Below, piece after piece: positions 1 through 30,480 of a stretch of 64,000 nucleotides of DNA (positions within the stretch are counted from its first letter, which is position 1; every line of letters begins with the position of its first letter). Source of the stretch: Patagioenas fasciata (Eukaryota); NCBI RefSeq assembly GCF_037038585.1, contig NC_092556.1, positions 386,619-450,618 on the forward strand, in the 5' to 3' direction. Position numbers and translations under genes: made by a program. Below the pieces are notes generated by a model that ran no database searches, was not told the origin of the DNA, and saw only the letters and a list, made by a program, of their open reading frames with translations.

Positions 1-262
1 GCCATCTTGGATCGGCGTCCATCTTGGACCGGCGGCCATCTTGGATTGGTGGCCATCTTGGTCAGCGGCCATCTTGGATTGGCGGCCATTTTGGATCGGC
101 GGCCATCTTGGATCGGTGGCCATCTTGGATCGGCGGCCATCTTGGATCGGCGGCCATCTTGGATCGACGGCCATCTTGGATCGGCGGCCATCTTGGACCG
201 GCGGCCATCTTGGTCGGCGGCCATCTTGGAACACAACGCATCGCTGCCGGGCGGCCATCTTG
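1..262 (+). repeat. Tandem array of about 14 units of about 17 bp, CGGCGGCCATCTTGGAT. Each unit contains a YY1-like core (GCCATCTTG)
   Basis: Direct reading. The array is truncated by the window start. Two inverted copies, AAGATGGCCGCC, are at about 1495-1535. Confidence 0.9.
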
Positions 263-440
263 GCTTCCCCCCCCTCCCCGGGCGCCATTTTGGGGGGGAA
301 TTGAACCCATTTTGGTGCCATTTCCCGCCCAATAAACCCCAATTACGTTTTAATTAAACATTTGAAGCTTAATTAAGCGTTTGTTGGGTTTTTATTCATT
401 AAATATCTTATCCACAAAGTTAGAAAATATAATCAGAAAT

Positions 441-1310
441 ATCACAGGAAATGGGCCCGAACTCCTGGGTCCCCCCCGAACTCCTGGGTCCCCCCCGAAC
501 TCCTGGGTCCCTCCCCGAACTCCTGGGTCCCCCCCCCGAACTCCTGGGTCCCTCCCGCACTCCTGGGTCCCCCCCGAACTCCTGGGTCCCTCCCCGAACT
601 CCTGGGTCCCCCCCGAACTCCTGGGTCCCCCCCCGAACTCCTGGGTCCCTCTTCCCACCCCAGGAAGTTATTTGGGGTCAAGGGGAGGTTGACCCCTCCC
701 GAACTCCTGGGTCCCCCCCCCGAACTCCTGGGTCCCCCCCCGAACTCCTGGGTCCCTCCCGAACTCCTGAGTCCCCCCCCGAACTCCTGGGTCCCTCCCG
801 AACTCCTGGGTCCCTCCCCCGAACTCCTGGGTCCCCCCCGAACTCCTGGGTCCCTCCCCGAACTCCTGGGTCCCTCCCGAACTCCTGGGTCCCTCTTCCC
901 ACCCCAGGAAGTTATTTGGGGTCAAGGGGAGGTTGACCCCTCCCGAACTCCTGGGTCCCCCTCCCGAACTCCTGGGTCCCTCCCGAACTCCTGGGTCCCC
1001 TCCCGAACTCCTGGGTCCCTCCCGAACTCCTGGGTCCCTCCCGAACTCCTGGGTCTCCCTCCCGAACTCCTGGGTCCCTCCCCCGAACTCCTGGGTCCCC
1101 CTCCCGAACTCCTGGGTCCCCCTCCCGAACTCCTGGGTCCCTCCCGAACTCCTGGGTCCCTCCCGAACTCCTGGGTCCCTCCCGAACTCCTGGGTCTCCC
1201 TCCCGAACTCCTGGGTCCCTCCCCCGAACTCCTGGGTCCCCTCCCGAACTCCTGGGTCCCCCTCCCGAACTCCTGGGTCCCTCCCCCGAACTCCTGGGTC
1301 CCCATTGACC
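441..1310 (+). repeat. Satellite, unit 17-19 bp GAACTCCTGGGTCCC(C)n, about 45 copies, with two about 50 bp spacers (648-701 and 893-946)
   Basis: Direct reading. The reverse complement GGGACCCAGGAGTTCGGG recurs at 5740-5890 and 18800-20000. Confidence 0.9.
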
Positions 1311-1559
1311 CCCAGCTCCTCCATGGCCACCTCATGGGTGCGAAAGGTGCCCAGGGTGGGTTCCTCTTGCCCGGTGGCCACCGTGGCCACCAAGGCTTGG
1401 GCCCCGCCCCCCCCGGCCCTCCCATCATCCTCTGGGAGCCTCACGGGCCCGGCCCAGGGCTCCAAGGACCCCGAGCGGCGGCGCCGGCGCCGGGCAACCA
1501 AGATGGCCGCCAACATGGCCACCAAGATGGCCGCCGTGGCCACCACCGGCAACGGCCAC

Positions 1560-2800
1560 CACCATAGGGCCACCTGGGGATGGGACGGGGCCACCGGGGG
1601 TGGGTGGTGGCCAACGGTGGCCAATGGGGCCTCTTGGTGGCCAATGGTGGCCGTTGAAGACTCCCGGTGGCCAATGGTGGCCATTGAGGACGATTGGTGG
1701 CCAATGGTGGCCATTGAGGACGATTGGTGGCCAATGGTGGCCGTTGAAGCCTCTTGGTGGCCAATGGTTGGTCCCGAAGACGGTTGGTGGCCAATGGTGG
1801 CCGTCGAAGCTGGTTGGTGGCCAATGGTGGCCAATGGGGCTTCTTGGTGGCCAATGGTGGCCGTTGAGGCCTCTTGGTGGCCAATGGTTGGTTCTGAAGA
1901 TGGTTGGTGGCCAATGGTGGCCAATGGGGTCTCTTGGTGGCCAATGGTGGCCAATGGGGACCCGTCGGTGGCTTCGGTGGCCAATGGGGCTTCTTGGTGG
2001 CCAATGGTGGCCAATGGGGCTTCTTGGTGACTCTTGGTGGCCAATGGGATCTCTTGATGGCCAACGGTGGCCAATGGGGCTTCTTCGTGACTCATGGTGG
2101 CCAATGGGGCCTCTTGATGACCAATGGTGGCCAATGAGGACCCATCGGTGGCCAATGGGGACTCTTGGTGGCCCTTGGTGGCCAATGGGGCTTCTTGATG
2201 ACCAATGGTGGCCAATGAGGACCCATCGGTGGCCAATGGGGCTTCTTGGTGGCCCTTGGTGGCCAATGGGGCTTCTTGATGACCAATGGTGGCCAATGAG
2301 GACCCATCGGTGGCCAATGGGGACTCTTGATGGCCAATGGTGGCCAATGGGGCTTCTTGATGACCAATGGTGGCCAATGAAGGCTCATCAGCAGCCAATG
2401 GGGCCTCTTGGTGACCCATGGTGGCCAATGGGGCTTCTTGGTGGCCAATGGTGGCCAATGGGGCTTCTTGATGACCAATGGTGGCCAATGAGGACCCATC
2501 GGTGGCCAATGGGGCCTCTTGATGGCCAATGGTGGCCAATGGGGCTTCTTGATGACCAATGGTGGCCAATGAAGGCTCATCAGCAGCCAATGGGGCCTCT
2601 TGGTGACCCATGGTGGCCAATGGGGCTTCTTGATGACCAATGGTGGCCAATGGGGCTTCTTGGTGGCCAATGGTGGCCAATGGAGCTTCTTGATGACCAA
2701 TGGTGGCCAATGAGGACCCATCGGTGGCCAATGGGGACTCTTGGTGGCCAATGGTGGCCGATGGGGGCCCATTGGTGGCCTCGGTGGCCAATGGGGACCC
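1560..2800 (+). repeat. Satellite GGTGGCCAATGGGGCYTCTT (10/20 bp), about 60 copies of the NF-Y-type GGCCAATGG motif
   Basis: Direct reading. Confidence 0.9.
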
Positions 2801-2929
2801 AGTGGTGGCCCCCATGGGGGGATCTATGGGGCAGAGGCCGGTGAGCAGCAGCACACAGAGGGCGGGGGCCGCGCGCGCCGTGGGGCGGCCCCACATGGCC
2901 GTGGGGCGCGGGGGGCGGGACCTGTGGGG

Positions 2930-4390
2930 ACACAATGGGGCGACCCACACATGGCACCCACGGGACCCACAAGTCCATCCTGGGACCCCCAAGTCCCCAT
3001 AGCACCCATGGGACCCCCAAGTCCCCATAGCACCCATGGGACCCCCCAAGTCCCTCTTGAGATCCCCAAATCCCCCCAGCACCCATGGGTGCCCCATAAC
3101 CCCCTTGGGACCCACAAGTCCCTCTTGGGCCCCACAGCACCCATGGGACCCCCAAGTCCCTCCTGGGACCCCCAAATGCCCACAGGACCCTTGGGTGCCC
3201 CATAACCCCCAAGGGACCCCCAAGTCCCCCCTGAGCCCCCCAAGTCCCCCCAGCACCCATGGGTGCCCCATAACCCCCATGGGCCCCACAGCACCCATGG
3301 GACCCCCAAGTACATCCTGGGCCCCCCAAGTCCCCATAGCACCCATGGGTGCCCCATAACCCCCATGGCTGCCCCACAGCACCCATGGGACCCCCAAGTC
3401 CATCTTGGGACCCCCAAGTCCCCATAACTCCCATGGACCCCCAAGTCGTTCTTGGGCCCCACAGCACCCATGGGCGCCCCATAACCCCCATGGGACCCCC
3501 AAGTCCCTCCTGAGCCCCCCAAGTCCCCATAACTCCCATGGGTGCTCCATAACCCCCATGGCTGCCCCAAGGCACCCATAGGACCCCCAAGTTCATCTTG
3601 GGACCCCCAAGACCCCCATGAGACCCCAAGTCCCCCCAGCACCCATGGGTGCCCCATAACCCCCATGGGCCCCACAGCACCCACGGGACCCCCAAGTCCC
3701 TTCTGAGCCCCCCAAGTCCCCATAACCCCCATGGGACCCCCCCAAGTCCCCACAGCACCTATGGGACCCCCATGGGACCCCCAAGTGCCCTAAACACCCA
3801 TGGGTGCCCCATAACCCACACGGCTGCCCCATAGCACCCATGGGACCCCCAAGTCCATCTTGGGACCCACAGCACCCTCGGGTGCCCCATAACCCCCATG
3901 GGACCCCCAAGTCCCCCCAGCACCCATGGGACCCCCAAGTCCATCCTGGGCCCCCCAAGTCCCCATAGCACCCATGGGTGCCCCATAACCCCCATGGGCC
4001 CCACAGCACCCACGGGACCCCCAAGTCCCTTCTGAGCCCCCCAAGTCCCCATAACCCCCATGGGACCCCCAAGTCCCCCCAGCACCTATGGGACCCCCAT
4101 GGGACCCCCAAGTCCCCCCAGCACCCATGGGACCCCCAAGTCCCTCCTGAGCCCCCCAAGTCCCCACAGCACCCATGGGACCCCCCAAGTCCCTCTTGGG
4201 ACCCCCAAGTCCCCACAGCACCCATGGGCCCCATAGCACCCCATGGGCCCCACAGCACCCATGGGTGCCCCATAACCCCCATGGGCCCCACAGCACCCAC
4301 GGGACCCCCAAGTCCCTCCTGAGCCCCCCAAGTCCCCCCCAGCACCCATGGGCCCCATAGCACCCATGGGTGCCCCATAACCCCCTATGG
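2930..4390 (+). repeat. Satellite about 18-24 bp CCCATGGGACCCCCAAGTCC / CCCCATAGCACCCATGG variants
   Basis: Direct reading. Confidence 0.85.
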
Positions 4391-4529
4391 GTCCCGGTAC
4401 CTGTGGGGCCGCGGCCGTTGGCGCGGGAACCGGGACAGGAAGTGGCGAGTGGGGCAGGAAACCCCGCCCCCCCCGCCCCTCCCCCCCCCCGCCCCACATC
4501 CGGGAGCCAAGCGGGGCCAACATGGCGGC

Positions 4530-5540
4530 TCAATCAGCCCCATAGATGTGGGGCAGCCCCATAGATGTGGGGAGACCCCCATTGGTTGCAATCAGCCCCA
4601 TAGATGTGGGGCGGACCCATAGATGTGGGGAGACCCCATTGGTTGCAATGAGCCCCATAGATGTGGGGCGGACCCATAGATGTGGGGAGACCCCATTGGT
4701 TGCAATGAGCCCCATAGATGTGGGGCGGACCCATAGATGTGGGGCGGCCCCATTGGTTGCAATGAGCCCCATAGATGTGGGGCGGACCCATAGATGTGGG
4801 GCGGCCCCATTGGTTGCAATGAGCCCCATAGATGTGGGGTGGCCCCATAGATGTGGGGTGACCCCCATTGGTTTCAATGAGCCCCATAGATGTGGGGAGA
4901 CCCCATTGGTTGCAATGAGCCCCATAGATCTGGGGAGACCCCATAGTTGCGGGGTGGCCCCATTGATTTCAATGAGCCCCATAGATGTGGGGAGACCCCA
5001 TTGGTTGCAATGAGCCCCATAGATCTGGGGAGACCCCATAGTTGCGGGGTGGCCCCATTGATTTCAATGAGCCCCATAGATGTGGGGAGACCCCATTGGT
5101 TGCAATGAGCCCCATAGATGTGGGGCGGACCCATAAATGTGGGGAGACCCCATTGTTTGCAATGAGCCCCATAGATGTGGGGCGGACCCATAGATGTGGG
5201 GCGGCCCCATTGGTTGCAATGAGCCCCATAGATGTGGGGCGGACCCATAGATGTGGGGCGGCCCCATTGGTTTCAATGAGCCCCATAGATGTGGGGAGAC
5301 CCCATTGGTTGCAATGAGCCCCATAGATCTGGGGAGACCCCATAGATGTGGGGTGGCCCCATTGATTTCAATGAGCCCCATAGATGTGGGGAGACCCCAT
5401 TGCTTTCAATGCACCCCATAGATATGGGGCGGCCCCATTGATTTCGATGAGCCCCATAGATCTGGGGAGACCCCATTGATTCCAATGCGCCCCATAGATC
5501 TGGGGAGACCCCATTGGTTTCAAGGCGCCCCATAGATTTG
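4530..5540 (+). repeat. Satellite about 40-60 bp CCCATAGATGTGGGGNGACCCCATTGGTTGCAATGAG
   Basis: Direct reading. Confidence 0.85.
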
Positions 5541-7804: not shown

Positions 7805-7909
7805 TCATTCTCCCTCTTTGTCCTCGCCATGCGTTATCACGTAGCAGATGTTCTTGTAATCCACGTTGCCGGCCACGTCGGGGGGAAACGCCGCCCACAT
7901 GTTCTTGAT
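7805..7909 (-). CDS. MYLPF: MYLPF exon 7 ([34 protein letters not shown], stop)
   Basis: Acceptor cccccccccag|ATCAAGAAC. The stop codon TGA is at 7805-7807 on the minus strand. Confidence 0.9.
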
Positions 7910-10900
7910 CTGGGGGGGGGGACACCCCAAAATTGGTCAGTGGGGGACCCCAAAATACAAGGGGGGGGGTGCAATGTAGCATGGGGGGGATTTGGGGGGG
8001 ATTTGGGGGGGATTGGGGGGGATTTGGGGGGATTAGGGGGGGATTTGGGGGGTCAGCAAAGGGGGTTTGGGGGGAGCAGTGAGGGGGTATAGGGGGGGTT
8101 TTGGGGTCTCTATGGGGGGGTTTGGGGTCCCCATGGGGGGTTGGGGTCCCCAAGGGGGGTTTGGGGTCCCAAGGGGGGGTCCCAAGGGGGTTTGGGGTCC
8201 CTATGGGCAGTTTGGGGTCCGCATGGGGGGTTTGGGGTCCTCATGGGGGGTTTGGGGTCCCAAGGGGGGGTCCCAAGGGGGTTTGGGGTCCCTATGGGCA
8301 GTTTGGGGTCCCAAGGGGGTTTGGGGTCCGCATGGGGGGTTGGGGTCCCCAAGGGGGTTTGGGGTCCCAAGGGGGGTCCCAAGGGGGTTTGGGGTCCTCA
8401 TGGGGGGTTTGGGGTCCCCATGGGGGTTTGGGGTCCCCAGGGGGTTTGGGGTCCCCAAGGGGGTTTGGGGTCCTCATGGGGGGTTTGGGGTCCCATGGGG
8501 GGTTTGGGGTCCCCATGGGGGGTTTGGGGTCCCAAGGGGGGTTTGGGGTCCCCAAGGGGGTTTTGGGGTCCCCATGGGGGTTTGGGGTCCCCAGGGGGTT
8601 TGGGGTCCCCATGGGGGTTTGGGGTCCCCAGGGGGTTTGGGGTCCCAAGGGGGGTTTGGGGTCCCAAGGGGGTTTTGGGGTCCCCAAGGGGGTTTTGGGG
8701 TCCCCATGGGGGTTTGGGGTCCCCAGGGGGTTTGGGGTCCCAAGGGGGTTTGGGGTCCTCATGGGGGTTTGGGGTCCCCAAGGGGGTTTTGGGGTCCCCA
8801 AGGGGGTTTTGGGGTCCCCATGGGGGTTTGGGGTCCCCAGGGGGTTTGGGGTCCCAAGGGGGTTTGGGGTCCCCATGGGGGTTTGGGGTCCCAAGGGGGT
8901 TTGGGGTCCCCATGGGGGGTTTGGGGTCCTCATGGGGGGTTTGGGGTCCTCATGGGGGTTTGGGGTCCCCAAGGGGGTTTGGGGTCCCAAGGGGGGTCCC
9001 AAGGGGGTTTGGGGTCCCCATGGGGGTTTGGGGTCCTCATTGGGGGTTTGGGGTCCCCATGGGGGGTTTGGGGTCCTCATGGGGGGTTTGGGGTCCCAAG
9101 GGGGTTTGGGGTCCCAAGGGGGTTTTGGGGTCCCCATGGGGGTTTGGGGTCCTCATTGGGGGTTTGGGGTCCCCATGGGGGGTTTGGGGTCCCCAAGGGG
9201 GTTTGGGGTCCCAAGGGGGTTTGGGGTCCCCAAGGGGAGTTTGGGGTCCCCATGGGGGGTTTGGGGTCCTCATTGGGGGTTTGGGGTCCCCAAGGGGAGT
9301 TTGGGGTCCCAAGGGGGGTTTGGGGTCCCAAGGGGGTTTGGGGTCCCAAGGGGGTTTTGGGGTCCCCATGGGGGTTTGGGGTCCTCATGGGGGGTTTGGG
9401 GTCCCAAGGGGGTTTGGGGTCCCAAGGGGGTTTTGGGGTCCCCATGGGGGGTTTGGGGTCCCCATGGGGGTTTGGGGTCCTCATGGGGGGTTTGGGGTCC
9501 CAAGGGGGTTTGGGGTCCCCATGGGGGTTTGGGGTCCCCATGGGGGGTTTGGGGTCCCATGGGGGTTTGGGGTCCTCATGGGGGGTTTGGGGTCCCAAGG
9601 GGGTTTGGGGTCCCCATGGGGGTTTTGGGGGGTTCTGGGGGTTTTGGGGGTGGTTTTGGGGGGTTTTGGGGGGTCCCGGGGGGGTTTGGGGCTGATTTTG
9701 GGGTGATTTGGGGGGTTTTGGGGCTCTCACCTCCTCGGGGGTGAAGCGGTCGCACTGGGTGGTCAGGAGCTCCTCAAGGCTGGGGGGGCACAGTGACCCC
9801 AATGTCCCCATTGACCCCCACTGGCCCCCATTGGCCCCCATTGGCCTCCATTGACCCCCACTGGCCCCCATTGGCCCCCGTTGGCCCCCCATTGTCCTCA
9901 TTGGCCCCCATTGGCCCCCATTGGCCCCCCATTATCCCCATTGTCACCCCATCGGTCCCATTGCCCCCCATTGTCCCCCCATTGGCCCCATTGGCCCCCA
10001 CTGGCCCCCATTGGCCCCCATTGGCCCCCATTGTCACCCATTGTCCCCATTGTCCTCATTGGCCCCCATTGGCCCCCACTGGCCCCCATTGGCCCCCGTT
10101 GGCCCCCATTGTCACCCATTATCCCCATTGGCCCCCCATTGGCCCCATTGGCCCCCACTGGCCTCCATTGACCCCCATTGGCCCCCATTGGCACCATTGT
10201 CACCCATTGGCCCCATTGTCACCCATTGTCCCCATTGGTCCCCATTGGCCCCATTGTCACCCATTGTCCCCATTGTCCCCCCATTGTCCCCCATTGGCCG
10301 CCATTGCCCCCCATTGTCCCCCCATTGCCCCCCATTGTCACCCCATTGGCCCCCATTGGCTCCCATTGACCCCCATTGGCCCCCATTGGCCCCCCATTGT
10401 CCTCACTGTCCCCCATTGTCCCCATTGTCCCCATATCCCCCAATGTCCCCATATCCCCCAACACCCCCATTGTCCCCCCATGTCCCCCATGTCCCCCATG
10501 TCCCCAATGTCCCCATATCCCCCAACACCCCCATTGTCCCCCCATGTCCCCAATGTCCCCAATGTCCCCATTCCCCCCAACACCCCCATTGTCCCCCCAT
10601 GTCCCCCATGTCCCCCATGTCCCCAATGTCCCCAATGTCCCCATATCCCCCAACACCCCCATTGTCCCCCAATGTCCCCCATGTCCCCAATGTCCCCAAT
10701 GTCCCCATATCCCCCAACACCCCCATTGTCCCCCCATGTCCCCCATGTCCCCCATGTCCCCAACGTCCCCACTCACAAGCTCTTCTTGATGGAGCCCTTC
10801 CCGTCGGGGTCCAGCACCTTGAACGCCCCCATGATCACGTCCTCGGGGTCCGCGCCTGCCCCACGGGGTCCCCAAGGTCAAGGTCACGGCCCCAATGTCC

Positions 10901-13900
10901 CCAATGTCCCCCCATGTCCCCCAATGTCCCCCCATATCCCCCAATGTCCCCCCATGTCCCCCAATGTCCCCCCATATCCCCCAATGTCCCCCCAATGTCC
11001 CCAATGTGCCCCCATGTCCCTCATTGTCCCCATATCCCCAAATGTGTCCCCATGTCCCCCCATATCCCCACATCCCCCAATGTCCCCATGTCCCCCAATA
11101 TCCCCCTGTCCCCATATGTCCCATTGTCCCCATATCCCCCAATGTCCCCATTTTCCCCTCCATGTCCCCCATATCCCCCAATGTCCCCATTGCCCCCAAT
11201 GTCCCCATTGTCCCCATAGTCCCCCCATATCCCCCCATGTGCCCCCATTTATCCCCCCATATCCCCCAATGTCCCCATGTCCCCCATTGTCCTCATTGCC
11301 CCCAATGTCCCCATTGCCCCCAATGTCCCCATTGTCCCCCTATGCCCCCATAACCCCCATTGCCCCCAATGTCCCATTGTCCCCATGTCCCCCAATGTCC
11401 CCATGTCCCCCCATTATCCCCATACCCCCCACATCCCCCATATCCCCCAATGTCCCCATATCCCCCCATGTCCCCCATTGCCCCCCAATGTCCCCACGTC
11501 CCCCCATTATCCCCATGTCCCCCAATGTCCCCATGTCCCCCAATGTCCCCATGTCCCCCCATTATCCCCATATCCCCCAATGTCCCCATGTCCCCCAATG
11601 TCCCCAGATCCCCCCATTATCCCCATATCCCCCAATGTCCCCATGTCCCCCCATTATCCCCATATCCCCCAATGTCCCCATTGTCCCCCAATGTCCCCAG
11701 ATCCCCCCATTATCCCCATATCCCCCAATGTCCCCATTGTCCCCAATGCCCCCATTGTCCCCCTATCCCCCCATGTCCCCCCATTATCCCCCTGTCCCCC
11801 AATGTCCCCCTGTCCCCCAATGTCCCCATGTCCCCCAATGTCCCCCAATGTCCCCCAACGTCCCCAACGTCCCCACCCTTGAGCTTCTCCCCGAACATGG
11901 TGAGGAACACGGTGAAGTTGATGGGGCCGCTGGCCTCTTTGATCATGGCGTCCAGCTCCTCGTTCTTCACGTTCAGCCGGCCTATCAGAGACAGGGGGCG
12001 GGGCTTAGCGGGACACGCCCACCCCCAAACCCCGCCCCCTAGGCAATAAACCCCGCCCCTTACCATTCGGATTCCACACCCCCCCCTTGGCTCTATAGGC
12101 AATGGAATGGCCCTGGAGGCCACGCCCCCATTCACAAGCCACGCCCCCCTTTTAAACCCCCATTCCCTCCATTGGGTACCAAGGCCACGCCCCCTTTGTG
12201 CAAACCACGCCCCCTTTCCCAACCCCTATTGGCCCTGAGGCCACGCCCCCATTCTAAAGCCACGCCCCCAATCTTTAACCCCGCCTCCTTCTCCATAAGG
12301 CGCTAAGCCCCGCCCACCTTGCATAAGCGACGCCCCCCCCATTCTACCCAATTGGCTCTTGAGGCCACGCCCACATTTCCTCAAGCCACGCCCACATTTC
12401 CTCAAGCCACGCCCCTTTTCTAGACTCCGCCCCCTTCTCTATGAGGCGCTAAGCCACGCCCCCCTTTTCAATCTTCCATTTAATCCATTGGTTCTGGAAG
12501 CCACGCCCCCCCTTCAATCTCCCATTTACTCTACTGGCTGTGGAGGCCACGCCCCCTTTGCATAAGCCACGCCCCCTTTCAATATCCCATTTAATCTATT
12601 GGCTCTGGAGGCCACGCCCCCCACAAGCCCCACCCCTGCAAGCCGCTAAGCTCCGCCCCTTTGCCGCAAGCCACGCCCCCCCCCTTCCACCCCCCCAATT
12701 TACTCTATTGGCTCTGGAGGCCACGCCCACATTGCTCAGGCCACGCCCCCTCGGCAAACCCCACCCCCCCATTCATCCCTATGGCCCCATTGACCCCTCC
12801 ACCCCCCACAAGGCCACACCCATGCTCACTGAGGCCACACCCTCCAAGCCACGCCCACCTCCCCAAGCCACGCCCACCTCCCCCAAGCCACGCCCCCTCA
12901 CCCATGGCGGCGAAGGTCTCGCGCAGATCATCCTTATCAATGATCCCGTCCCGGTTCTGATCGATCACCGTGAACGCCTGCAGGGGGCGCGGGGGAGCAT
13001 GGGCCGCAGGCCACGCCCCCCGCCCCAAGCCACGCCCCCCCGCCCCAAGCCACGCCCCCCACCCCCCCCCCAAGCCTTCAAGGAGACATTGGAGCCGGCA
13101 ACAGGTGCTGGAAAGGACCCAGGCGTCCGGGGAAAGGGACCCAGGCGGCCGGGGGTTGGACCAAATAAGGGACCCAGGCGTCCGGGTGACCCCACCCCCC
13201 CCAAAAAAGGGACCCTGGAGTTCGGGGGTTGAACCAAAAAAGGACCCAGGCGTCCGGGGGGGTCTGATCAAGGGACCCAGGCGTCCGGGGAAAGGGACCC
13301 AGGCGTCCGGGGTGACCCCACCCCCCCAAAAAAGGGACCCTGGAGTTCGGGGGTTGAACCAAAAAAGGACCCAGGCGTCCGGGGTGACCCCTAAAAAGGG
13401 ACCCAGGCGTCCGGGGTGACCCCACCCCCCAAAAAAGGGACCCTGGAGTTCGGGGTTGAACCAAAAAAGGACCCAGGCATCCGGGGTGACCCCTAAAAAG
13501 GGACCCAGGCGTCCGGGGGGATCTGCCCGAGGGACCCAGGCGTCCGGGGGGGTCTGCCCAAGGGACCCAGGCGTCCGGGGGGGTCTGATCAAGGGACCCA
13601 GGCGTCCGGGGGGGTCTGATCAAGGGACCCAGGCGTCCGGGCAAAGGGACCCAGGCATCCGGGGTGACCCCTAAAAAGGGACCCAGGCGTCCGGGGGGGG
13701 TCTGCCCAAGGGACCCAGGCGTCCGGGGGGGTCTGCCCGAGGGACCCAGGCGTCCGGGGGGGTCTGCCCGAGGGACCCAGGCGTCCGGGGGGGTCTGATC
13801 AAGGGACCCAGGCGTCCGGGCAAAGGGACCCAGGCATCCGGGGTGACCCCTAAAAAGGGACCCAGGCGTCCGGGGGGGGTCTGCCCAAGGGACCCAGGCG

Positions 13901-16900
13901 TCCGGGGGGGGGTCTGAAAAAGGGACCCAGGCGTCCGGGGGGGTCTGCCCGAGGGACCCAGGCGTCCGGGGGGGGTCTGAAAAAGGGACCCAGGCGTCCG
14001 GGGGGGTCTGCCCGAGGGACCCAGGCATCCGGGGTTGCCCCCCCATTCCCCCCAAAAGGGACCCAGGCGTCCGGGGGGGTCTGCCCGAGGGACCCAGGCG
14101 TCCGGGGGGGTCTGCCCGAGGGACCCAGGCGTCCGGGGGGGTCTGCCCGAGGGACCCAGGCGTCCGGGGGGGTCTGATCAAGGGACCCAGGCGTCCGGGC
14201 AAAGGGACCCAGGCATCCGGGGTGACCCCTAAAAAGGGACCCAGGCGTCCGGGGGGGTCTGCCCGAGGGACCCAGGCGTCCGGGGGGGTCTGATCAAGGG
14301 ACCCAGGCGTCCGGGCAAAGGGACCCAGGCATCCGGGGTGACCCCTAAAAAGGGACCCAGGCGTCCGGGGGGGTCTGCCCAAGGGACCCAGGCGTCCGGG
14401 GGGGTCTGCCCGAGGGACCCAGGCGTCCGGGCGCCCCCACCTCCTTGAACTCCTGGATCTGGGTCTGGTCGAACATGGAGAAAACGTTGGAGCTGCCCTC
14501 GGCCGCTCGGCGCTTCGCCTTCTTGGGGGCCTGCGCGCAGATGGGGGGCAGGATGGGGGGTGGGTGTGGGGCAGGATGGGGGGGGATGTGGGGCAGGATG
14601 TGGGGGGGATGTGGGGGGGATGTGGGGCGGGTGTGGGGGGGTGTGGGGGGGGTGTGGGGCAGGATGGGGGGGGATGTGGGGCAGGATGGGGGGGGGTGTG
14701 GGGCTGGGTGTGGGGGGGGTGTGGGGCAGGATGTGGGGCAGGATGGGGGGCAGGATGGGGGGGATGTGGGGCAGGATGTGGGGCGGGCGTGGGGTGGGTG
14801 TGGGGCAGGATGGGGGGCGGGTGTGGGGTACAAATGGGGCAGGATGTGGGGGGGATGTGGGGCAGGATGTGGGGCAGGATGGGGGGGGGATGTGGGGGGG
14901 ATGTGGGGGGGATGTGGGGCAGGATGGGGGGGGATGTGGGGGGGGATGTGGGGTACAAATGGGGTGGATGTGGGGCAGGATGGGGGGCGGGTGTGGGGCA
15001 GGATGGGGGGGGGATGTGGGGTGGGATGTGGGGGGGATGTGGGGCAGGATGGGGGGGGATGTGGGGTACAAATGGGGCAGGATGTGGGGGGGATGTGGGG
15101 CGGGTGTGGGGGGGATGTGGGGGGGATGTGGGGCAGGATGTGGGGGGGATGTGGGGCGGGTGTGGGGCGGGATGGGGGGGGATGTGGGGCGGGTGTGGGG
15201 CGGGTGTGGGGGGGATGTGGGGGGGATGTGGGGCAGGATGTGGGGGGGATGTGGGGCGGGTGTGGGGCGGGATGGGGGGGGATGTGGGGTACAAATGGGG
15301 CAGGATGTGGGGGGGATGTGGGGGGGATGTGGGGGGGATGTGGGGCGGGTGTGGGGCAGGATGTGGGGGGGATGTGGGGCAGGATGGGGGGCGGGTGTGG
15401 GGGGGATGTGGGGGGGATGTGGGGTGGGATGTGGGGCAGGATGTGGGGCAGGATGGGGGGCGGGTGTGGGGCAGGATGGGGTGGGGATGTGGGGTGGGAT
15501 GTGGGGGGGATGTGGGGGGGATGTGGGGCAGGATGGGGGGGGATGTGGGGGGGATGTGGGGGGGATGTGGGGCAGGATGGGGGGGGATGTGGGGTACAAA
15601 TGGGGCAGGATGTGGGGGGGATGTGGGGCGGGATTTGGGGGGAGATGTGGGGGGGATGTGGGGGGGATGTGGGGGGGATGTGGGGTACAAATAGGGTGGG
15701 ATTTGGGGTACAAATGGGGCAGGTGTGGGGGGGATGTGGGGCAGGATCTGGGGGGGATGTGGGGTGGGATTTGGGGTACAAATGGGGCGGATGTGGGGTG
15801 GATTGGGGGGGATGTGGGGCAGGGATGTGGGGCAGATGGGGAGCAGGGGGTCCCTGGGGGTCCCTATGGGGTCTGGGGGGGATCTGGGGGGGATCTGGGG
15901 GTCCCTATGGGGTCTGGGGGTCCCTATGGGGTTCCCTATGGGGTCTGGGGGTCCCTATGGGGTCTGGGGGTCCCTATGGGGTCTGGGGGGTCCCTGGGGG
16001 TCCCTATGGGGTCTGGGGGTCCCTGGGGGTCCCTATGGGGTCTGGGGGTCCCTATGGGGTCAGGGGGTCCCTGGGGGTCCCTATGGGGTCTGGGGGTCCC
16101 TATGGGGTCTGGGGGTCCCTGGGGGTCTGGGGGGGATGTGGGGGTCCCTATGGGGTCTGGGGGTCCCTGGGGGTCCCTATGGGGTCTGGGGGTCCCTGGG
16201 GGTCTGGGGGGGATGTGGGGGTCCCTATGGGGTCTGGGGGTCCCTGGGGGTCCCTATGGGGTCTGGGGGTCCCTATGGGGTCTGGGGGGGATGTGGGGGT
16301 CCCTATGGGGTCTGGGGGTCCCTGGGGGTCCCTATGGGGTCTGGGGGTCCCTATGGGGTCAGGGGGTCCCTGGGGGTCCCTATGGGGTCTGGGGGTCCCT
16401 ATGGGGTCTGGGGGTCCCTGGGGGTCTGGGGGGGATGTGGGGGTCCCTATGGGGTCTGGGGGTCCCTGGGGGTCCCTATGGGGTCTGGGGGTCCCTGGGG
16501 GTCTGGGGGGGATGTGGGGGTCCCTATGGGGTCTGGGGGTCCCTGGGGGTCCCTATGGGGTCTGGGGGTCCCTATGGGGTCTGGGGGGGATGTGGGGGTC
16601 CCTATGGGGTCTGGGGGTCCCTGGGGGTCCCTATGGGGTCTGGGGGTCCCTATGGGGTCTGGGGGGGATGTGGGGGTCCCTATGGGGTCTGGGGGTCCCT
16701 GGGGGTCCCTATGGGGTCAGGGGGTCCCTGGGGGTCCCTATGGGGTCTGGGGGTCCCTATGGGGTCTGGGGGTCCCTGGGGGTCCCTATGGGGTCTGGGG
16801 GGTCCCTATGGGGTTCCCTATGGGGTCTGGGGGTCCCTATGGGGTCAGGGGGTCCCTATGGGGTCTGGGGGTCCCTGGGGGTCCCTATGGGGTCAGGGGG

Positions 16901-18164
16901 TCCCTGGGGGTCCCTATGGGGTCTGGGGGTCCCTATGGGGTCAGGGGGTCCCTGGGGGTCCCTATGGGGTCTGGGGGTCCCTATGGGGTCAGGGGGTCCC
17001 TGGGGGTCCCTATGGGGTCTGGGGGTCCCTATGGGGTCTGGGGGTCCCTGGGGGTCTGGGGGGGATGTGGGGGTCCCTATGGGGTCTGGGGGTCCCTGGG
17101 GGTCCCTATGGGGTCTGGGGGTCCCTATGGGGTCTGGGGGGGATGTGGGGGTCCCTATGGGGTCTGGGGGTCCCTGGGGGTCCCTATGGGGTCTGGGGGT
17201 CCCTATGGGGTCTGGGGGGGATGTGGGGGTCCCTATGGGGTCTGGGGGTCCCTGGGGGTCCCTATGGGGTCTGGGGGTCCCTATGGGGTCTGGGGGGGAT
17301 GTGGGGGTCCCTATGGGGTCTGGGGGTCCCTGGGGGTCCCTATGGGGTCTGGGGGTCCCTATGGGGTCTGGGGGGGATGTGGGGGTCCCTATGGGGTCTG
17401 GGGGTCCCTGGGGGTCCCTATGGGGTCTGGGGGTCCCTATGGGGTCTGGGGGGGATGTGGGGGTCCCTATGGGGTCTGGGGGTCCCTATGGGGTCTGGGG
17501 GTCCCCATGGGGTCTGGGGGGGATGTGGGGGTCCCTATGGGGTCTGGGGGTCCCTATGGGGTCTGGGGGTCCCTGGGGTTCCCTATGGGGTCTGGGGGGG
17601 ATCTGGGGGTCCCTATGGGGTTTGGGGGTCCCTATGGGGTCTGGGGGTCCCTGGGGGTCCCTATGGGGTCTGGGGGTCCCTGGGGTTCCCTATGGGGTCT
17701 GGGGGTCCCTATGGGGTTCCCTATGGGGTCTGGGGGTCCCTATGGGGTTCCCTATGGGGTCTGGGGGGGATCTGGGGGATCTGAAAAGGGACCCAGGCGT
17801 CCGGGCTGCCCCCCCCCCATCCCCCCCAAAAGGGACCCAGGCGTCCGGGGGTGTCCTTCCCCAATTTGGGGTTAATTGGGGGTTAATTGGGGGTCCAGGG
17901 GGGTTAATTGGGGGTAATTGGGGGGTTAATTGAGGGTTAATTGGGGGTAATTGGGGGTAATTGGGGGGTTAATTGAGGGTTAATTGGGGGTAATTGGGGG
18001 TCCAGGGGGGTTAATTGGGGGTAATTGGGGGGTCCAGGGGGGTTAATTGGGGGTCCAGGGGGGTTAATTGGGGGTAATTGGGGGGTCCAGGGGGGTTAAT
18101 CGTGGGTCCAGGGGGGTTAATTAGGAGCTAATGAGGGGTTAATTAACCGGGGTCCCCTCACCAT
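7805..18164 (-). CDS. MYLPF: Fast skeletal muscle myosin regulatory light chain 2 (MLC2f), complete CDS in 7 exons, 168 aa
   Basis: Spliced minus-strand exons: 18162-18164 (ATG only), 14441-14530, 12902-12977, 11877-11981, 10777-10855, 9731-9779, 7805-7909 (includes stop). Translation: [168 protein letters not shown]. This matches my recall of vertebrate MYLPF, and the chicken protein in particular. All junctions are GT..AG with pyrimidine-rich acceptors, and exon phases are consistent. Confidence 0.9.
8070..9720 (+). repeat. G-rich satellite, about 20-22 bp GGGGTTTGGGGTCCCCATGG, about 75 copies (MYLPF intron 6)
   Basis: Direct reading. Confidence 0.9.
9731..9779 (-). CDS. MYLPF: MYLPF exon 6 ([17 protein letters not shown])
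   Basis: Acceptor gtgcccccccag|CCTTGAG and donor GAGGAG|gtgagagc. 49 bp. Confidence 0.9.
9790..11870 (+). repeat. 9-bp periodic C-rich satellite (CCCCATTGG / CCCCATGTC / CCCAATGTC variants) filling MYLPF introns 4 and 5, interrupted by exon 5
   Basis: Direct reading. The minus strand reads GGCCAATGGG repeatedly. Confidence 0.9.
10777..10855 (-). CDS. MYLPF: MYLPF exon 5 ([26 protein letters not shown])
   Basis: Acceptor cgtggggcag|GCGCGG and donor AAGAGCTT|gtgagtgg. 79 bp. Confidence 0.9.
11877..11981 (-). CDS. MYLPF: MYLPF exon 4 ([35 protein letters not shown])
   Basis: Acceptor tctgatag|GCCGGC and donor CTCAAGG|gtgggga. 105 bp. Confidence 0.9.
12060..12900 (+). repeat. About 60 bp repeats built on CCACGCCCC cores (MYLPF intron 3)
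   Basis: Direct reading. Confidence 0.8.
12902..12977 (-). CDS. MYLPF: MYLPF exon 3 ([26 protein letters not shown])
   Basis: Acceptor ccccctgcag|GCGTTC and donor GCCATGG|gtgaggg. This is the EF-hand 1 region. Confidence 0.9.
13080..14440 (+). repeat. Satellite about 30 bp GGGACCCAGGCGTCCGGGGGGGTCTGCCCGA (MYLPF intron 2)
   Basis: Direct reading. Confidence 0.9.
14441..14530 (-). CDS. MYLPF: MYLPF exon 2 ([30 protein letters not shown])
   Basis: Acceptor ..ctgcgcgcag|GCCCCC and donor AAGGAG|gtgggggc on the minus strand. 90 bp, phase 0 to 0. Confidence 0.9.
14560..15800 (+). repeat. Satellite GGGATGTGGGGCAGGATGTGG (8-11 bp GATGTGGGG core) in MYLPF intron 1
   Basis: Direct reading. The same core recurs at 62520-64000. 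Confidence 0.9.
15840..17790 (+). repeat. Satellite about 24-30 bp GGGGTCCCTATGGGGTCTGGGGGTCCCTGG (MYLPF intron 1)
   Basis: Direct reading. Confidence 0.9.
17860..18130 (+). repeat. Satellite GGGGTTAATTGGGGGTAATTG
   Basis: Direct reading. Confidence 0.85.
18162..18164 (-). CDS. MYLPF: MYLPF exon 1 coding part (initiator ATG only, then GTGAGG donor)
   Basis: Minus strand reads gcggccATG|gtgagggg. Exon 2 begins with the codon after Met (APKKAKRR), so exon 1 must end exactly at the ATG. A TATA-like TTTAAAA lies 43 nt upstream. Confidence 0.55.
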
Positions 18165-18245
18165 GGCCGCTCTCGGGGTCTCTGGGGGTCCCGGCCCCTC
18201 CGGGGGTTTTAAAGCCTCTTGGCCCCGCCCCCCCCCCGGACGCCT
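18165..18245 (-). promoter_or_regulatory. MYLPF: MYLPF core promoter: TATA/MEF2-like TTTAAAA (18207-18213 plus-strand coordinates) about 43 nt upstream of the ATG, with a GC box (ggggcgggg) further upstream
   Basis: Minus strand reads gggggcggggccaagaggcTTTAAAAcccccggaggggccgggacccccagagaccccgagagcggccATG|gtgagg. The placement assumes an exon 1 that ends at the ATG. Confidence 0.45.
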
Positions 18246-20339: not shown

Positions 20340-21840
20340 CCAAACCCATTTTGGGCTCAAATAACCCAGTTTTGGGGGTCAAAGAACCCAGTTTTGGGGT
20401 CGAAAAAGCCATTTTTGGGGTCAAAGAACCCATTTTTGGGGTCAAAACCCCCATTTTTTGGGTCAAATGACCCATTTTTGGGGTCGAAAAAGCCATTTTT
20501 GGGCTCAAATAACCCATTGTTGGGTCTCAAATAACCCATTTTGGGGGTCAAAAAAGCCTTTTTTGGGGTCACAACAGTCATTTCTGGGGTCAAATAACCC
20601 ACTTTTGGGCTCAAATAACCCATTCTTGGGGTCAAATAACCCACACTTGGGCCTAAATAACCCACACTTGGACTCCCATCACCTGTTTTGGGGGTCAAAT
20701 CACCCATTTTTGGGGTTGAAAAAACCATTTTTTGGGTCAAAAAAGCCATTTTTGGGGTCGAAAAAGCCATTTTGAGGCCCAAATAACCCAAGTTTGGGCT
20801 CAAATAACCCATTCTTGGACTCCAATAACCCATTCTTGGGAGTCAAATAACCCACACTCGGGCCTAAATAACCCACACTTGGGCCTAAATAACCCACACT
20901 TGGACTCAAATCACCTGTTTTTGGGTCAAATAACCTGTTTTTTGGGTCAAATAACCCATTTTTGGGGTGGAGGAAGCCGATTTTGGGGTGGAAGAAGCCA
21001 TTTTGGGGGTCACAACAGCCATTTCTGGGGTCAAATAACCCATTCTTAGGCCCAAATAACCCATTCTTGGGGGTCAAATAACCCACTCTTGGGCCTAAAT
21101 AACCCACACTTGGACTCCAATCACCCGTTTTTGGGGTCAAATAACCCGTTTTTTGGGTCAAAAAAGCCATTTTGAGGCCCAAATAACCCAAGTTTGGGCT
21201 GAAATAACCCATTCTTGGACTCCAATAACCCATTCTTGGGGGTCAAATAACCCACACTCGGGCCTAAATAACCCACACTTGGACTCCAATCACCTGTTTT
21301 TGGGTCAAATCACCCGTTTTTGGGGTCAAATAACCCATTTTTGGGGTGGATGAAGCCATTTTGGGGGTCACAACAGCCATTTCTGGGGTCAAATAACCCA
21401 TTCTTAGGCCCAAATAACCCATTCTTGGGGGTCAAATAACCCACTCTTGGGCCTAAATAACCCACACTTGGACTCCAATCACCTGTTTTTGGGTCAAATC
21501 ACCCGTTTTTGGGGTCAAATCACCCGTTTTTGGGGTCAAATAACCCGTTTTTTGGGTCAAAAAAGCCATTTTGAGGCCCAAATAACCCAAGTTTGGGCTC
21601 AAATAACCCATTCTTGGACTCCAATAACCCATTCTTGGGCGTCAAATAACTCACACTCGGGCCTAAATAACCCACACTTGGGCCTAAATAACCCACACTT
21701 GGGCCTAAATAACCCACACTTGGACTCCAATCACCTGTTTTTGGGTCAAATCACCCGTTTTTGGGGTCAAATAACCCGTTTTTGGGGTCAAATCACCCGT
21801 TTTTGGGGTGGAGGAAGCCGATTTTGGGGTGGATGAAGCC
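20340..21840 (+). repeat. AT-richer satellite about 20-22 bp GGGTCAAATAACCCATTYTTGG / GGCCTAAATAACCCACACTTGG with an about 400 bp higher-order period
   Basis: Direct reading. Confidence 0.85.
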
Positions 21841-21850
21841 GATTTTGGGG

Positions 21851-30000: not shown

Positions 30001-30480
30001 TGGGCTCCTACCGGCTCCGCTGTGTCCTCAATGGCGGCCGCGTCCCCGCCCTTTCCCCCCGCCCACCTCCCCGGAACCACCCAATCAGCGCCCTCTCCCT
30101 TGCCCGCACCGCCCTCTGATTGGCCGCCCCTTTCCCTTAACCCCGCCCCCTCCCTGGCACGCCCGCTTCCCTGCCGCCTCAGCGCCCCCAGCGCGCATGC
30201 GCCGCCTTCCCCCCTCCCACCACCTCCGCCGGGGTCCACTTCCGGTTGCCGCCGGCGCCATCTTGGAGCCGGGGCGGCGGGAAAAGCGGCGGCGCCGGGG
30301 GGTCCCGCGGGTTCCCCCCCCCCCCAGGGTGGTTTTTGGGGTGAAATCGGCGCTTTTGGGGGCTCCCCCGGAGCGGGGGGGCGGGCGGGGCCCCCCCCCG
30401 GGAGCTGCAGCCGCCGGGGGGGGGGGAAACTTATGGGGCCGGGTCGGGAGCCACAAGTGGAGACAGCGGAGAGAACGGTG
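30000..30480. promoter_or_regulatory. Non-repetitive CpG-island promoter between head-to-head PAGR1 and TAOK2, probably bidirectional. Motifs found: YY1-like gccgccattgagg (minus, about 30030) and gcgccatcttgg (30256-30266); CCAAT 30081-30085; inverted CCAAT 30119-30123; NRF1 GCGCATGCGC 30193-30202; ETS/GABP cacTTCCGG 30237-30245; several GC boxes; a candidate TAOK2 non-coding exon 1 donor AACG|gtgagg at 30477/30478
   Basis: This is the only unique, CpG-dense stretch in the 4.1 kb between the PAGR1 ATG (28838, minus) and the TAOK2 ATG (32941, plus). The GABP + NRF1 + YY1 + NF-Y + SP1 combination is typical of bidirectional promoters. PAGR1 has an acceptor immediately 5' of its ATG and TAOK2 has an acceptor at 32856/57, so both need upstream non-coding exons. 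Confidence 0.5.

What the first reader, a model, noticed from the sequence alone, without database searches (positions are those of the whole stretch)
1..262. Tandem array of about 14 YY1-like sites (GCGGCCATCTTGG) at the window edge; a similar single-copy site sits in the TAOK2/PAGR1 promoter
The unit CGGCGGCCATCTTGGAT differs by one base from the YY1 consensus GCCGCCATCTT and retains the GCCAT core. Two further inverted copies (AAGATGGCCGCC) lie at about 1495-1535. The single-copy element GGCGCCATCTTGGAGCCGG at 30254-30270 in the CpG island closely resembles one repeat unit. Clustered YY1 sites are known to act as regulatory or insulator-like elements, for example at imprinted DMRs. This may be an expanded promoter element of the neighbouring gene that lies outside the window.
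Basis: partly seen in the sequence, partly recalled or inferred. Interest (0 to 1): 0.5.

Follow-up and report, generated by a model that had tools for sequence, protein, structure and literature searches.

The report
Amplified ancient YY1-type motif cluster
The edge of the window holds a real tandem array of strong YY1-type binding motifs, but it is not a promoter: it is a locally amplified copy of an old motif cluster that birds and alligators keep at the tail end of a connexin-like gene, back to back with the SPN/CD43-like gene.

Summary
Window 1-263 holds 15 same-strand copies of GGCGGCCATCTTGG: a 17-bp unit in 13.6 tandem copies, plus one isolated copy. The window starts inside the array.

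- **YY1 match.** Each unit contains the exact 12-mer of a standard YY1 gel-shift probe and scores 0.99 of the maximum on a YY1 matrix recalled from memory.
- **Position.** It is not a promoter element. In eagle and owl the array lies between the stop codon and a conserved AATAAA of a divergent connexin-like gene. Hummingbird and alligator also have the motifs just after that stop codon. In this bird the gene would lie outside the window. The array abuts, tail to tail, the 3' end of an SPN/CD43-like gene (668-2896, minus strand).
- **Conservation.** GCCATCTTGG is kept at this position in all these species, while copy number (about 3 to 26), spacing and spacers change. The same motif also occurs inverted and in frame (K/N-M-A-A) inside the connexin-like coding exon.
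- **Background.** 84% of this window is tandem repeat. The compact array is best read as a lineage-specific "stuttered" amplification of that old element.
- **Other sites.** The copies at 1498-1535 are transmembrane codons (A-A-I-L). The 30254 site is an ordinary promoter YY1 site.

YY1 occupancy and function are untested.

The parts
1..230 (+). Tandem array of the 17-bp unit CGGCGGCCATCTTGGAT (13.6 copies). Every unit carries the YY1-type core GCCATCTT, all in one orientation. The array is cut by the window edge.
   Evidence: Substitutions avoid the 12-mer: 5 of 168 positions inside it against 12 of 70 outside (Fisher p = 3e-4).
249..269 (+). Isolated terminal unit GGGCGGCCATCTTGG plus CTTCCC, the copy nearest SPN. 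It is orthologous to the last unit of the eagle and owl arrays.
   Evidence: Alignment A1: window 250-263 and 265-269 are invariant in window, eagle and owl.
281..293 (+). Single GGCGCCATTTTGG, a canonical YY1-type sequence (0.973 of matrix maximum). It is not conserved in eagle or owl.
306..315 (+). CCCATTTTGG block conserved in three birds. CCCAT departs from the GCCAT core, so it is probably not a YY1 site.
   Evidence: window 306-313 and 315 are invariant.
331..336 (+). AATAAA within the invariant CCAATAAAC. Putative poly(A) signal of the + strand connexin-like gene that lies outside the window, which would place the array in that gene's 3' UTR.
   Evidence: window 329-337 invariant. The position relative to the stop codon is seen in eagle and owl. 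Its use as a poly(A) signal is inferred.
391..396 (-). AATAAA on the minus strand. Putative poly(A) signal of the SPN/CD43-like gene, inside a TTTATT...AAATATCTTA block shared with eagle.
   Evidence: Inferred.
668..2896 (-). SPN/CD43-like open reading frame: signal peptide, about 40 mucin-type 10-residue repeats, transmembrane helix, RRRRRR, and a tail with PWAGP...PEDDG...PTLGTF...AMEEL. The C-terminal part (668-1303) runs through a 19-bp repeat array.
   Evidence: Homologous tails occur in a metagenome bird contig, eagle and owl. The name SPN rests on architecture, on my memory of the human CD43 tail, and on 16p11.2-type neighbours.
1498..1535 (-). The 'inverted copies': GCG GCC ATC TTG = Ala-Ala-Ile-Leu, twice, with a GGCCATGTTGG copy between them. 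They are codons of the SPN transmembrane helix (VATAAILVAMLAAILVA).
   Evidence: (period 12, 3.2 copies).
30254..30266 (+). Independent single YY1-type site GCGCCATCTTGG in the PAGR1/TAOK2 CpG island. It is not part of the array.
   Evidence: 0.969; PAGR1 and TAOK2 exons on either side.

Best explanation
The array is a lineage-specific tandem amplification of an old cis-element whose core, GCCATCTTGG(AT), is a high-affinity YY1-type site. Such amplification is the 'sequence stuttering' that fills this window.

The element belongs to the 3' end of a divergent connexin-like gene on the same strand, just outside the window. In eagle and owl the cluster starts at that gene's stop codon and ends shortly before a conserved AATAAA. 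It meets the 3' end of the convergent SPN/CD43-like gene there.

What is shown:
- the array, its motif quality and its position;
- its orthology with the other species' clusters;
- conservation of the motif against turnover of spacers, spacing and copy number.

What is inferred:
- YY1, the only known vertebrate factor for this sequence outside placental mammals (own knowledge), binds the units and forms a multi-copy docking platform at the boundary between the two convergent transcription units;
- this platform acts as a local regulatory or boundary (pausing) element for the connexin-like gene and/or SPN;
- a few copies probably suffice (hummingbird has about 3), so the 15 or more copies here are surplus produced by repeat instability.
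For: 1. Motif quality. Units score 0.988 of the YY1 matrix maximum. The exact 12-mer CGGCCATCTTGG is in the YY1 gel-shift probe of PMC4763200.

2. Orthology. Window 250-269, 306-315 and 329-337 are invariant against eagle and owl at the end of the array nearest SPN. SPN tails lie next to the array in eagle (L003 16336-16016) and owl (L005 13329-12997).

3. Position. The stop codon of the connexin-like gene is directly followed by GGC(G/A)GCCATCTTGG in eagle and owl, and is overlapped by it in hummingbird. In alligator the array follows the stop of paralogue X2.

4. Motif conservation with spacer turnover.
- There are 26 matrix hits in eagle, 25 in owl, about 3-4 in hummingbird, 4 in L001 and 15 here.
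- The top 8-mers of every non-coding array are GCCATCTT, CCATCTTG and CATCTTGG.
- Information content is 1-1.9 bits in the core against 0.06-0.6 bits in the flanks.
- Within the window array, substitutions avoid the 12-mer (p = 3e-4).

5. No homogenisation from the coding copies. Eagle coding copies are mostly AACATGGCC, while the non-coding copies are AAGATGGCC.

6. Local origin of the 17-bp unit. The owl's distal units read GGCGGCCATCTTGGATCG, like the window unit.

7. Repeat background. 84% of the window lies in TRF arrays, matching the 'stuttering' described for avian dot chromosomes (PMC12954441).
Against: - There are no binding, expression or methylation data, so YY1 occupancy is inferred from sequence only.
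- The matrix was recalled from memory.
- Conservation extends beyond what YY1 needs. Position 4 is always G, position 10 is C in birds, and the 3' GGAT extension is shared with alligator. That could point to another reader of the sequence, or to an RNA-level element.
- In alligator array rev2 some units have TCCAT or ACCAT instead of GCCAT. Such changes abolish YY1 binding in other contexts (PMC11602158).
- Correlation of array information content with the matrix is only modest: rho 0.12-0.73 on 8 positions.
- The connexin-like gene is not visible in this window. Its presence is inferred from synteny and the conserved AATAAA.
- Units of an array are not independent, so the Fisher test overstates significance.
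Confidence: 0.5

Rival explanations
1. Neutral minisatellite. The array is one of about 84 tandem-repeat blocks in the window and has no function. The YY1 resemblance is incidental, and the motif persists only through array homogenisation and descent from the neighbouring coding repeat.
For: - 84% of the window is tandem repeat.
- A second, unrelated array (20343-21851, CAAAATGGCTTT units) also reaches the matrix threshold.
- Copy number ranges from 3 to 26 between species.
- Arrays holding the 10-mer CAAGATGGCC are common in unrelated metagenome DNA: more than 120 loci.
Against: - The same 10-mer is the commonest word in non-coding arrays of five taxa spanning birds and alligator, while the spacers share nothing.
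- Homogenisation cannot hold a consensus constant between lineages.
- Coding and non-coding copies differ systematically in eagle, so there is no ongoing conversion between them.
- Substitutions inside the window array avoid the core.
Confidence: 0.25
2. RNA-level element. The array is transcribed in the 3' UTR of the connexin-like mRNA as repeated GGCGGCCAUCUUGGAU. It acts there as a site for an RNA-binding protein or small RNA, or by pairing with the complementary in-frame AAG/AAC-AUG-GCC-GCC repeats of the coding region.
For: - The array lies between the stop codon and a conserved AATAAA on the gene's sense strand.
- The motif has the opposite orientation in the coding exon, so coding region and 3' UTR are complementary over 9-14 nt per copy in birds.
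- Conservation extends to CCATCTTGGAT, beyond the YY1 footprint.
Against: - There is no covariation. Eagle coding copies carry C at position 4, where the 3' copies would need to pair with G.
- In alligator the complementary stretch shrinks to about 5-7 nt.
- No transcript data are available.
- Rfam finds nothing.
Confidence: 0.12
3. Promoter. The reiterated YY1 motif, flanked by GC boxes and CCAAT boxes in eagle and owl, drives transcription on the minus strand. Such a transcript would be antisense to the connexin-like gene, as at YY1 clusters of mammalian antisense RNAs.
For: - Eagle and owl units combine GGGGCGGGG, GATTGG and the YY1 motif.
- On the minus strand the motif reads AAGATGGCC in the sense orientation. 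From my own knowledge, this is the orientation usual just downstream of start sites.
- CpG observed/expected of the window array is 0.97, against a window median of 0.44.
Against: - The position is 3' of a stop codon and downstream of the SPN poly(A) signal, with no annotated 5' end there in eagle or owl.
- The window unit has lost the GC boxes.
- High CpG content can simply reflect a young array.
- Alligator array rev2 has CpG observed/expected of 0.24.
Confidence: 0.1
4. The array and the SPN transmembrane codons are related by ectopic gene conversion or duplication, so the array derives from SPN coding sequence or the reverse.
For: There is 15-16 nt identity (CGGCGGCCATCTTGGT) between transmembrane codons at 1498-1535 and some array units, 1.2 kb apart and inverted.
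Against: - The array's orthologues exist in species whose SPN transmembrane region lacks the motif: L001 has none, and eagle has GCGGCCACGTTGG.
- Ala-Ala-Ile-Leu with GC-rich codons gives this sequence readily.
- The array is tied to the connexin-like gene in alligator.
Confidence: 0.03

Closest known systems
Clustered YY1-binding sites of mammalian imprinting and X-inactivation control regions (Peg3-DMR, Nespas/Gnas, Xist/Tsix) and the roughly 30 further clusters found by ECMFinder
   Same: - Many copies of one factor's motif, all in one orientation.
- The cluster is conserved at the homologous position, while number and spacing of motifs differ and the surrounding sequence does not align (PMC2665242; here).
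   Different: - This cluster is in archosaurs, not mammals.
- It lies after a stop codon in a tail-to-tail gene spacer rather than in a first intron or exon.
- It is paired with inverted, in-frame copies in the coding exon.
- No binding or methylation data exist.
Avian dot-chromosome 'sequence stuttering' (local tandem expansion of formerly unique sequence; PMC12954441)
   Same: - An imperfect tandem array of local origin in a GC-rich, gene-dense, repeat-saturated region.
- The unit matches the distal units of the owl array.
   Different: The sequence amplified is itself a conserved motif cluster, and substitutions avoid the motif. Most other arrays in the window have no such conserved counterpart that I examined.
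LINE-1 5' UTR YY1 sites: the human L1 site at nt 9-20 and the tandem mouse Tf monomers each carrying GTCGCCATCTTG
   Same: - The same core, GCCATCTTG.
- The mouse monomers are tandem units that each carry a YY1 site (PMC11602158).
- From memory, the human L1 site reads CAAGATGGCCG, identical to the unit.
   Different: No retrotransposon sequence flanks the array. The units are 17 bp, not about 200 bp, and the array is not at a 5' end.
Promoter-proximal YY1 motif AAGATGGCGGC of CpG-island promoters
   Same: The same consensus. The 30254-30266 site in this window is a plausible example.
   Different: The array is not at a known 5' end, and its variant shifts the CpG by one position (ATGGCCGC instead of ATGGCGGC).

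Membership tests
Clustered YY1-binding sites (ECMFinder / imprinting-control type) | At least 3 matches to cgCCATnTT (one mismatch allowed in the lower-case bases) within 500 bp | tested here: met
   15 copies of GGCCATCTT or GGCCATTTT within 263 bp, each with one lower-case mismatch. The criterion is quoted from PMC2665242.
Clustered YY1-binding sites (ECMFinder / imprinting-control type) | Cluster present at the homologous position in other species, with variable number and spacing | tested here: met
   Eagle has 26 matrix hits, owl 25, hummingbird about 3-4 and L001 4 motif copies; alligator has 7 and about 18 hits. The junction is invariant in three birds.
Clustered YY1-binding sites (ECMFinder / imprinting-control type) | All motifs of the cluster in one orientation | tested here: met
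   All copies at 1-263 are on the + strand. The same holds for the eagle and owl arrays.
Clustered YY1-binding sites (ECMFinder / imprinting-control type) | YY1 occupancy in vivo (ChIP) | not testable with these tools
   No binding data are available. There is only identity to a gel-shift probe and a matrix score.
Clustered YY1-binding sites (ECMFinder / imprinting-control type) | Location in a 5' CpG island, first intron or first exon, with allele-specific methylation | tested here: not met
   The orthologous arrays begin at the stop codon of the connexin-like gene. CpG observed/expected is 0.97 here. Methylation is not testable.
   By synteny the array lies 3' of the neighbour's coding region and upstream of its conserved AATAAA. 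On the other side is the 3' end of SPN. No start-site data exist, so an unannotated antisense start cannot be excluded.
Avian dot-chromosome sequence stuttering | Imperfect tandem repeat of local origin in a repeat-saturated, GC-rich gene region | tested here: met
   The array has 88% matches and period 17. 84% of the window lies in arrays. The unit equals the owl's distal units.
Avian dot-chromosome sequence stuttering | Located on a dot microchromosome | not testable with these tools
   The species and chromosome of the window are unknown, and window proteins are not on record.
LINE-1 promoter monomer arrays | Array is the 5' part of a retrotransposon with its open reading frames downstream | tested here: not met
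   The flanks are the SPN 3' UTR on one side and, in orthologues, a connexin-like coding exon on the other. The only reverse-transcriptase ORF seen is a separate insertion in alligator.

The most novel reading that the evidence does not exclude
An archosaur-wide two-part YY1-motif system that, given its presence in both birds and alligator, would predate their split, attached to one gene. Sense-oriented motifs are embedded in frame (K/N-M-A-A) in the cytoplasmic-loop exon of a divergent connexin-like gene. An opposed array of the same motif begins exactly at its stop codon. The two opposed arrays would work together, for example through YY1-YY1 looping or insulation of the convergent gene pair, or by driving an antisense transcript. 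The window's array would be the amplified 3' half of that system.
Probability: 0.2. Interest if true: 0.7.

Novelty: new member of a known kind. Interest (0 to 1): 0.45.

Why it matters
If YY1 really occupies these arrays, this would be a non-mammalian example of a conserved tandem cluster of sites for a single factor. Such clusters have been discussed mainly for mammalian imprinting and X-inactivation control regions.

It would be unusual in two ways. It sits at a gene's 3' end, between two convergent genes. It is also mirrored by in-frame copies inside the coding exon.

The case also shows that, on the repeat-saturated GC-rich avian chromosomes, some 'stuttered' arrays are amplified versions of constrained elements rather than random sequence. 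That matters when such regions are masked or ignored.

Practically, the array marks the 3' boundary of a poorly annotated connexin-like gene. The eagle copy is labelled 'golgin subfamily A member 6-like protein 2'.

Tried and rejected
- Rfam searches of window 1-3000 and of L001/L002 found nothing meaningful.
- Pfam found nothing for the SPN-like ORF.
- A PDB sequence search with the SPN tail gave only chance hits to amidases.
- tblastn with the human CD43 tail, as I remember it, found nothing in the window. The name SPN therefore stays an inference.
- Look-ups of the window's own PAGR1 and SPN ORFs in the assembly collection found nothing. I could neither identify the species nor extend the window 5'.
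It returned more than 120 mostly unrelated repeats: bacterial-type coding repeats, and a marine satellite with 10/11/21/32-bp spacing. It says only that this 10-mer is not rare in repeats. L052, L104 and L044, from the same samples as L001/L002, carry bird-like arrays but no recognisable coding flank.
- I considered that the reverse arrays are decayed coding repeats of an inverted paralogue. I rejected this because there is no room for the flanking transmembrane segments, and the spacings are not multiples of 3.
- I considered ongoing gene conversion from the coding copies and rejected it.
- The bacterial promoter/terminator scanner was not used, because it does not apply to a vertebrate.

Full report

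Yes. TRF reports one array at 1-230: period 17, 13.6 copies, 88% matches, consensus GCCATCTTGGATCGGCG. The motif starts every 17 bp (twice 16 bp) from position 2 to 221. One more copy lies at 249-263 after a unique 19-bp spacer. The first copy is cut by the window edge, so the true length is unknown.

The exact 11-mer GGCCATCTTGG occurs nowhere else in 64 kb except at 1498-1508 and 1522-1532 on the minus strand. With one mismatch allowed there are 21 matches against 4.4 +/- 2.2 in shuffles.

**2. Are the units YY1-like?**

Yes, strongly.
- On a YY1 matrix (JASPAR MA0095.2 as I recall it from memory) the unit CAAGATGGCCGC scores 17.5 bits, 0.988 of the maximum. The 30254 site scores 0.969.
- More directly, the 'YY1 consensus binding motif' oligo used for gel shifts in PMC4763200, CGCTCCCCGGCCATCTTGGCGGCTGGT, contains the array's exact 12-mer CGGCCATCTTGG.
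- The five-base core GCCAT, which single substitutions inactivate (PMC11602158), is intact in 14 of 15 copies.

**3. What surrounds it in the window?**

The window is vertebrate and bird-like, with 62% G+C, and 84% of it lies in TRF arrays forming 84 blocks. Using protein sequences recalled from memory as tblastn queries, I placed three genes:
- MYLPF on the minus strand, 7808-14530;
- PAGR1 on the minus strand, exons at 21911-28553, with an ATG at 28838;
- TAOK2 on the plus strand, from 32932.

Next to the array, the minus-strand ORF 668-2896 has the layout of a type I mucin: a signal peptide, about 40 ten-residue repeats (ATIGHQEAPL), a transmembrane helix, RRRRRR, and a tail with PWAGP...PEDDG...PTLGTF...AMEEL. 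I read it as SPN/CD43. That name rests on the architecture, on my memory of the human tail, and on the neighbours being orthologues of human 16p11.2 genes. A direct tblastn with the human tail found nothing.

The two 'inverted copies' at 1498-1535 are codons of its transmembrane helix: GCG GCC ATC TTG = A-A-I-L, within VATAAILVAMLAAILVA. They are not regulatory sites.

A minus-strand AATAAA at 396-391 is the likely SPN poly(A) signal. The array therefore begins about 130 bp beyond the SPN 3' end.

The 30254-30266 site sits in the PAGR1/TAOK2 CpG island, beside motifs I recognise by eye as NRF1-, ETS- and CCAAT-type. It is an ordinary promoter YY1 site. It resembles the repeat unit only because both match the same consensus.

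**4. Related loci**

A search with the SPN tail found one homologue, P0001, on two metagenome contigs from another bird. In L001, four CAAGATGGCC copies lie about 120 bp after the SPN stop, in the same orientation relative to SPN as the window array. They are followed by the 3' end of HSD3B7.

HSD3B7 homologues then led to long assemblies. Eagle (L003) and owl (L005) share this order:
- HSD3B7;
- a promoter-like element containing an octamer;
- a single large coding exon of a connexin-like gene, with a weak Pfam Connexin match at E = 1e-4 and a Connexin hit on record for the alligator homologue;
- the stop codon;
- an array of GGCGGCCATCTTGG (26 matrix hits in eagle, 25 in owl);
- a conserved junction;
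- the SPN 3' end on the opposite strand.

The end of the array nearest SPN aligns between window, eagle and owl. The last unit plus TTCCC, then CCCATTTTGG, then CCAATAAAC are invariant. The invariant plus-strand AATAAA (window 331-336) is best explained as the poly(A) signal of the connexin-like gene. That would put the array in the gene's 3' UTR.

Other species fit the same picture.
- Hummingbird has only about three such motifs at the stop codon, including the terminal GGCCATCTTGGATT.
- In Alligator sinensis, the stop of one connexin-like paralogue (L007 18030) is followed by an array of GCCATCTTGGATT units at 18100-18861.
- A second alligator paralogue has a similar array at 14152-14519, separated from its stop codon by a stretch holding a reverse-transcriptase ORF.

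**5. The motif also occurs inside the coding exon**

Within the connexin-like exon the same motif occurs in the opposite orientation, as AAG/AAC ATG GCC GCC (K/N-M-A-A). All spacings there are multiples of three in four species. The arrays after the stop have spacings of 16-130 bp with no such rule. So there is a coding set and an opposed non-coding set, switching at the stop codon.

**6. Is the motif constrained?**

Several lines say yes.
- Unbiased word counts give GCCATCTT, CCATCTTG and CATCTTGG as the top 8-mers in every non-coding array (window, eagle, owl, L052, alligator). The coding arrays prefer GCCATGTT or GCCATATT.
- Information content is 1-1.9 bits across the 12-mer and 0.06-0.6 bits in the flanks of the divergent arrays.
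- Spacers share nothing between species.
- In the window array, 5 of 168 positions inside the 12-mer differ from the consensus, against 12 of 70 outside it (Fisher p = 3e-4). One of the two changes in GCCATCTT is at the free 'n' position.
- Because eagle coding copies (AACATGG) differ systematically from its non-coding copies (AAGATGG), conversion from the coding repeat does not maintain the latter.

Caveats:
- Units of an array are not independent.
- The correlation with the matrix profile is modest (rho 0.12-0.73 on 8 positions).
- Conservation extends to a GGAT tail beyond the YY1 footprint.
- Some alligator units have TCCAT or ACCAT.

**7. Why is the array so compact here?**

Tandem arrays are the rule in this window. 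Local 'sequence stuttering' is described for avian dot chromosomes (PMC12954441; PMC9974502). The owl's distal units read GGCGGCCATCTTGGATCG, which is essentially the window's 17-bp unit. The window array therefore looks like a recent re-amplification of a distal unit of the ancestral cluster.

Its CpG observed/expected ratio is 0.97, against a window median of 0.44. This fits either a young array or germline hypomethylation, and I cannot separate the two.

Only one other block in the window (20343-21851) carries many matrix hits. The base rate of a YY1-like array is thus low but not zero. The cross-species evidence, not the matrix score, is what sets 1-263 apart.

**8. Mechanism**

Best supported (confidence about 0.5): a conserved cluster of YY1-type sites at the 3' end of the connexin-like gene and the boundary with SPN. 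In this lineage repeat instability has amplified it. It would act at the DNA level as a multi-copy YY1 platform with a regulatory, boundary or pausing role. The position, orthology and motif constraint are shown. Occupancy and effect are inferred.

Rivals:
- a neutral minisatellite (0.25);
- an RNA element of the 3' UTR (0.12), weakened by the lack of covariation with the coding copies;
- an antisense promoter (0.10);
- an origin by exchange with the SPN transmembrane codons (0.03).

**9. Comparison with what is known**

[quoted passage not shown] There too the motif, but not its number, spacing or surroundings, is conserved (PMC2665242). It differs in clade, in its 3' position between convergent genes, and in its mirror-image coding copies.

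I file it as a new member of that kind, with binding unproven. It is not a member of the promoter-proximal class, nor of the L1 monomer class.

**10. Limits**

- The species is unknown and the window could not be extended.
- The YY1 matrix and several reference protein sequences were recalled from memory.
- L001 lacks the connexin-like exon, possibly through collapse of a short-read assembly, since L052 from the same sample carries both motif orientations.

Noticed in passing
window 456-1303 (minus-strand ORF 668-2896): A 19-bp repeat (GGGGACCCAGGAGTTCGGG, about 42 copies) starts right after the conserved ...AMEELGVNGDPG of the SPN-like tail and keeps the frame open for about 210 more codons. 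In eagle and L001 the protein ends 20-25 residues after AMEEL. This looks like exon 'stuttering' that alters or extends the C-terminus.
   Followed up: partly
window 1498-1535: The SPN transmembrane codons carry a 12-bp triplication. It yields two perfect copies and one near copy of the array motif, with 15-16 nt identity to array units 1.2 kb away in inverted orientation. Eagle has GCGGCCACGTTGG at the same place. I could not tell chance from ectopic conversion.
   Followed up: partly
L003 12501-14183, L005 10001-11389, L006 10001-11407, L007 10001-12502 and 16599-18030: An archosaur gene family with connexin-like transmembrane segments 1-2 and 3-4, cysteine loops, and a long cytoplasmic loop made of (N/K)MAA(G/R) repeats. 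The eagle copy is annotated 'golgin subfamily A member 6-like protein 2'; owl and hummingbird copies are 'uncharacterized'. Every repeat supplies an in-frame ATG in a strong initiation context.
   Followed up: partly
window 20343-21851: A second tandem array whose units (CAAAATGGCTTT/C) reach 0.95-0.98 of the YY1 matrix maximum, all on the minus strand, near the 3'-most PAGR1 exon matched (21911-21994). I did not compare it with other species.
   Followed up: no
window 4380-4530: A short non-repetitive, very GC-rich stretch (78% G+C) with ACAGGAAGTGG and CAACATGGCGGC (matrix 0.978), upstream of the SPN-like ORF beyond a repeat-filled interval. Possibly the SPN promoter and first exon.
   Followed up: no
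L001 1690-1800 and L003 11925-11985: A conserved element, CCTTTAATTGGCCG...ATAATGAGATGCAAATG...ATGATAATGAGG, with an octamer motif flanked by GC boxes. It lies between HSD3B7 and the connexin-like gene and is the likely promoter of the latter.
   Followed up: no
window, whole: 84% of the 64 kb lies in TRF arrays (84 merged blocks), including introns and parts of exons of MYLPF, PAGR1, TAOK2 and the MFAP4-like copies. CpG observed/expected ranges from 0.0 to 1.08 between arrays.
   Followed up: partly
window 59250-62460: Several tandem copies of the last exons of an MFAP4-like fibrinogen-domain gene ([19 protein letters not shown]...) on the minus strand, interleaved with [10 protein letters not shown] repeats.
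   Followed up: no
L009, L015, L028, L043, L045, L064, L066, L085, L112 and others (metagenome contigs): A recurring satellite, CCCCAAGATGGCCCCAAGATGG, with spacings of 10, 11, 21 and 32 bp in marine and host-associated metagenomes. It is unrelated to birds, and its origin is unknown.
   Followed up: no
L001/L002 versus L052/L104: L001 joins the SPN 3' end to the connexin-like promoter with only four motif copies and no coding exon. L052, from the same sample, carries long arrays in both orientations. L001 may be a collapsed assembly, or that species may have lost the gene.
   Followed up: partly
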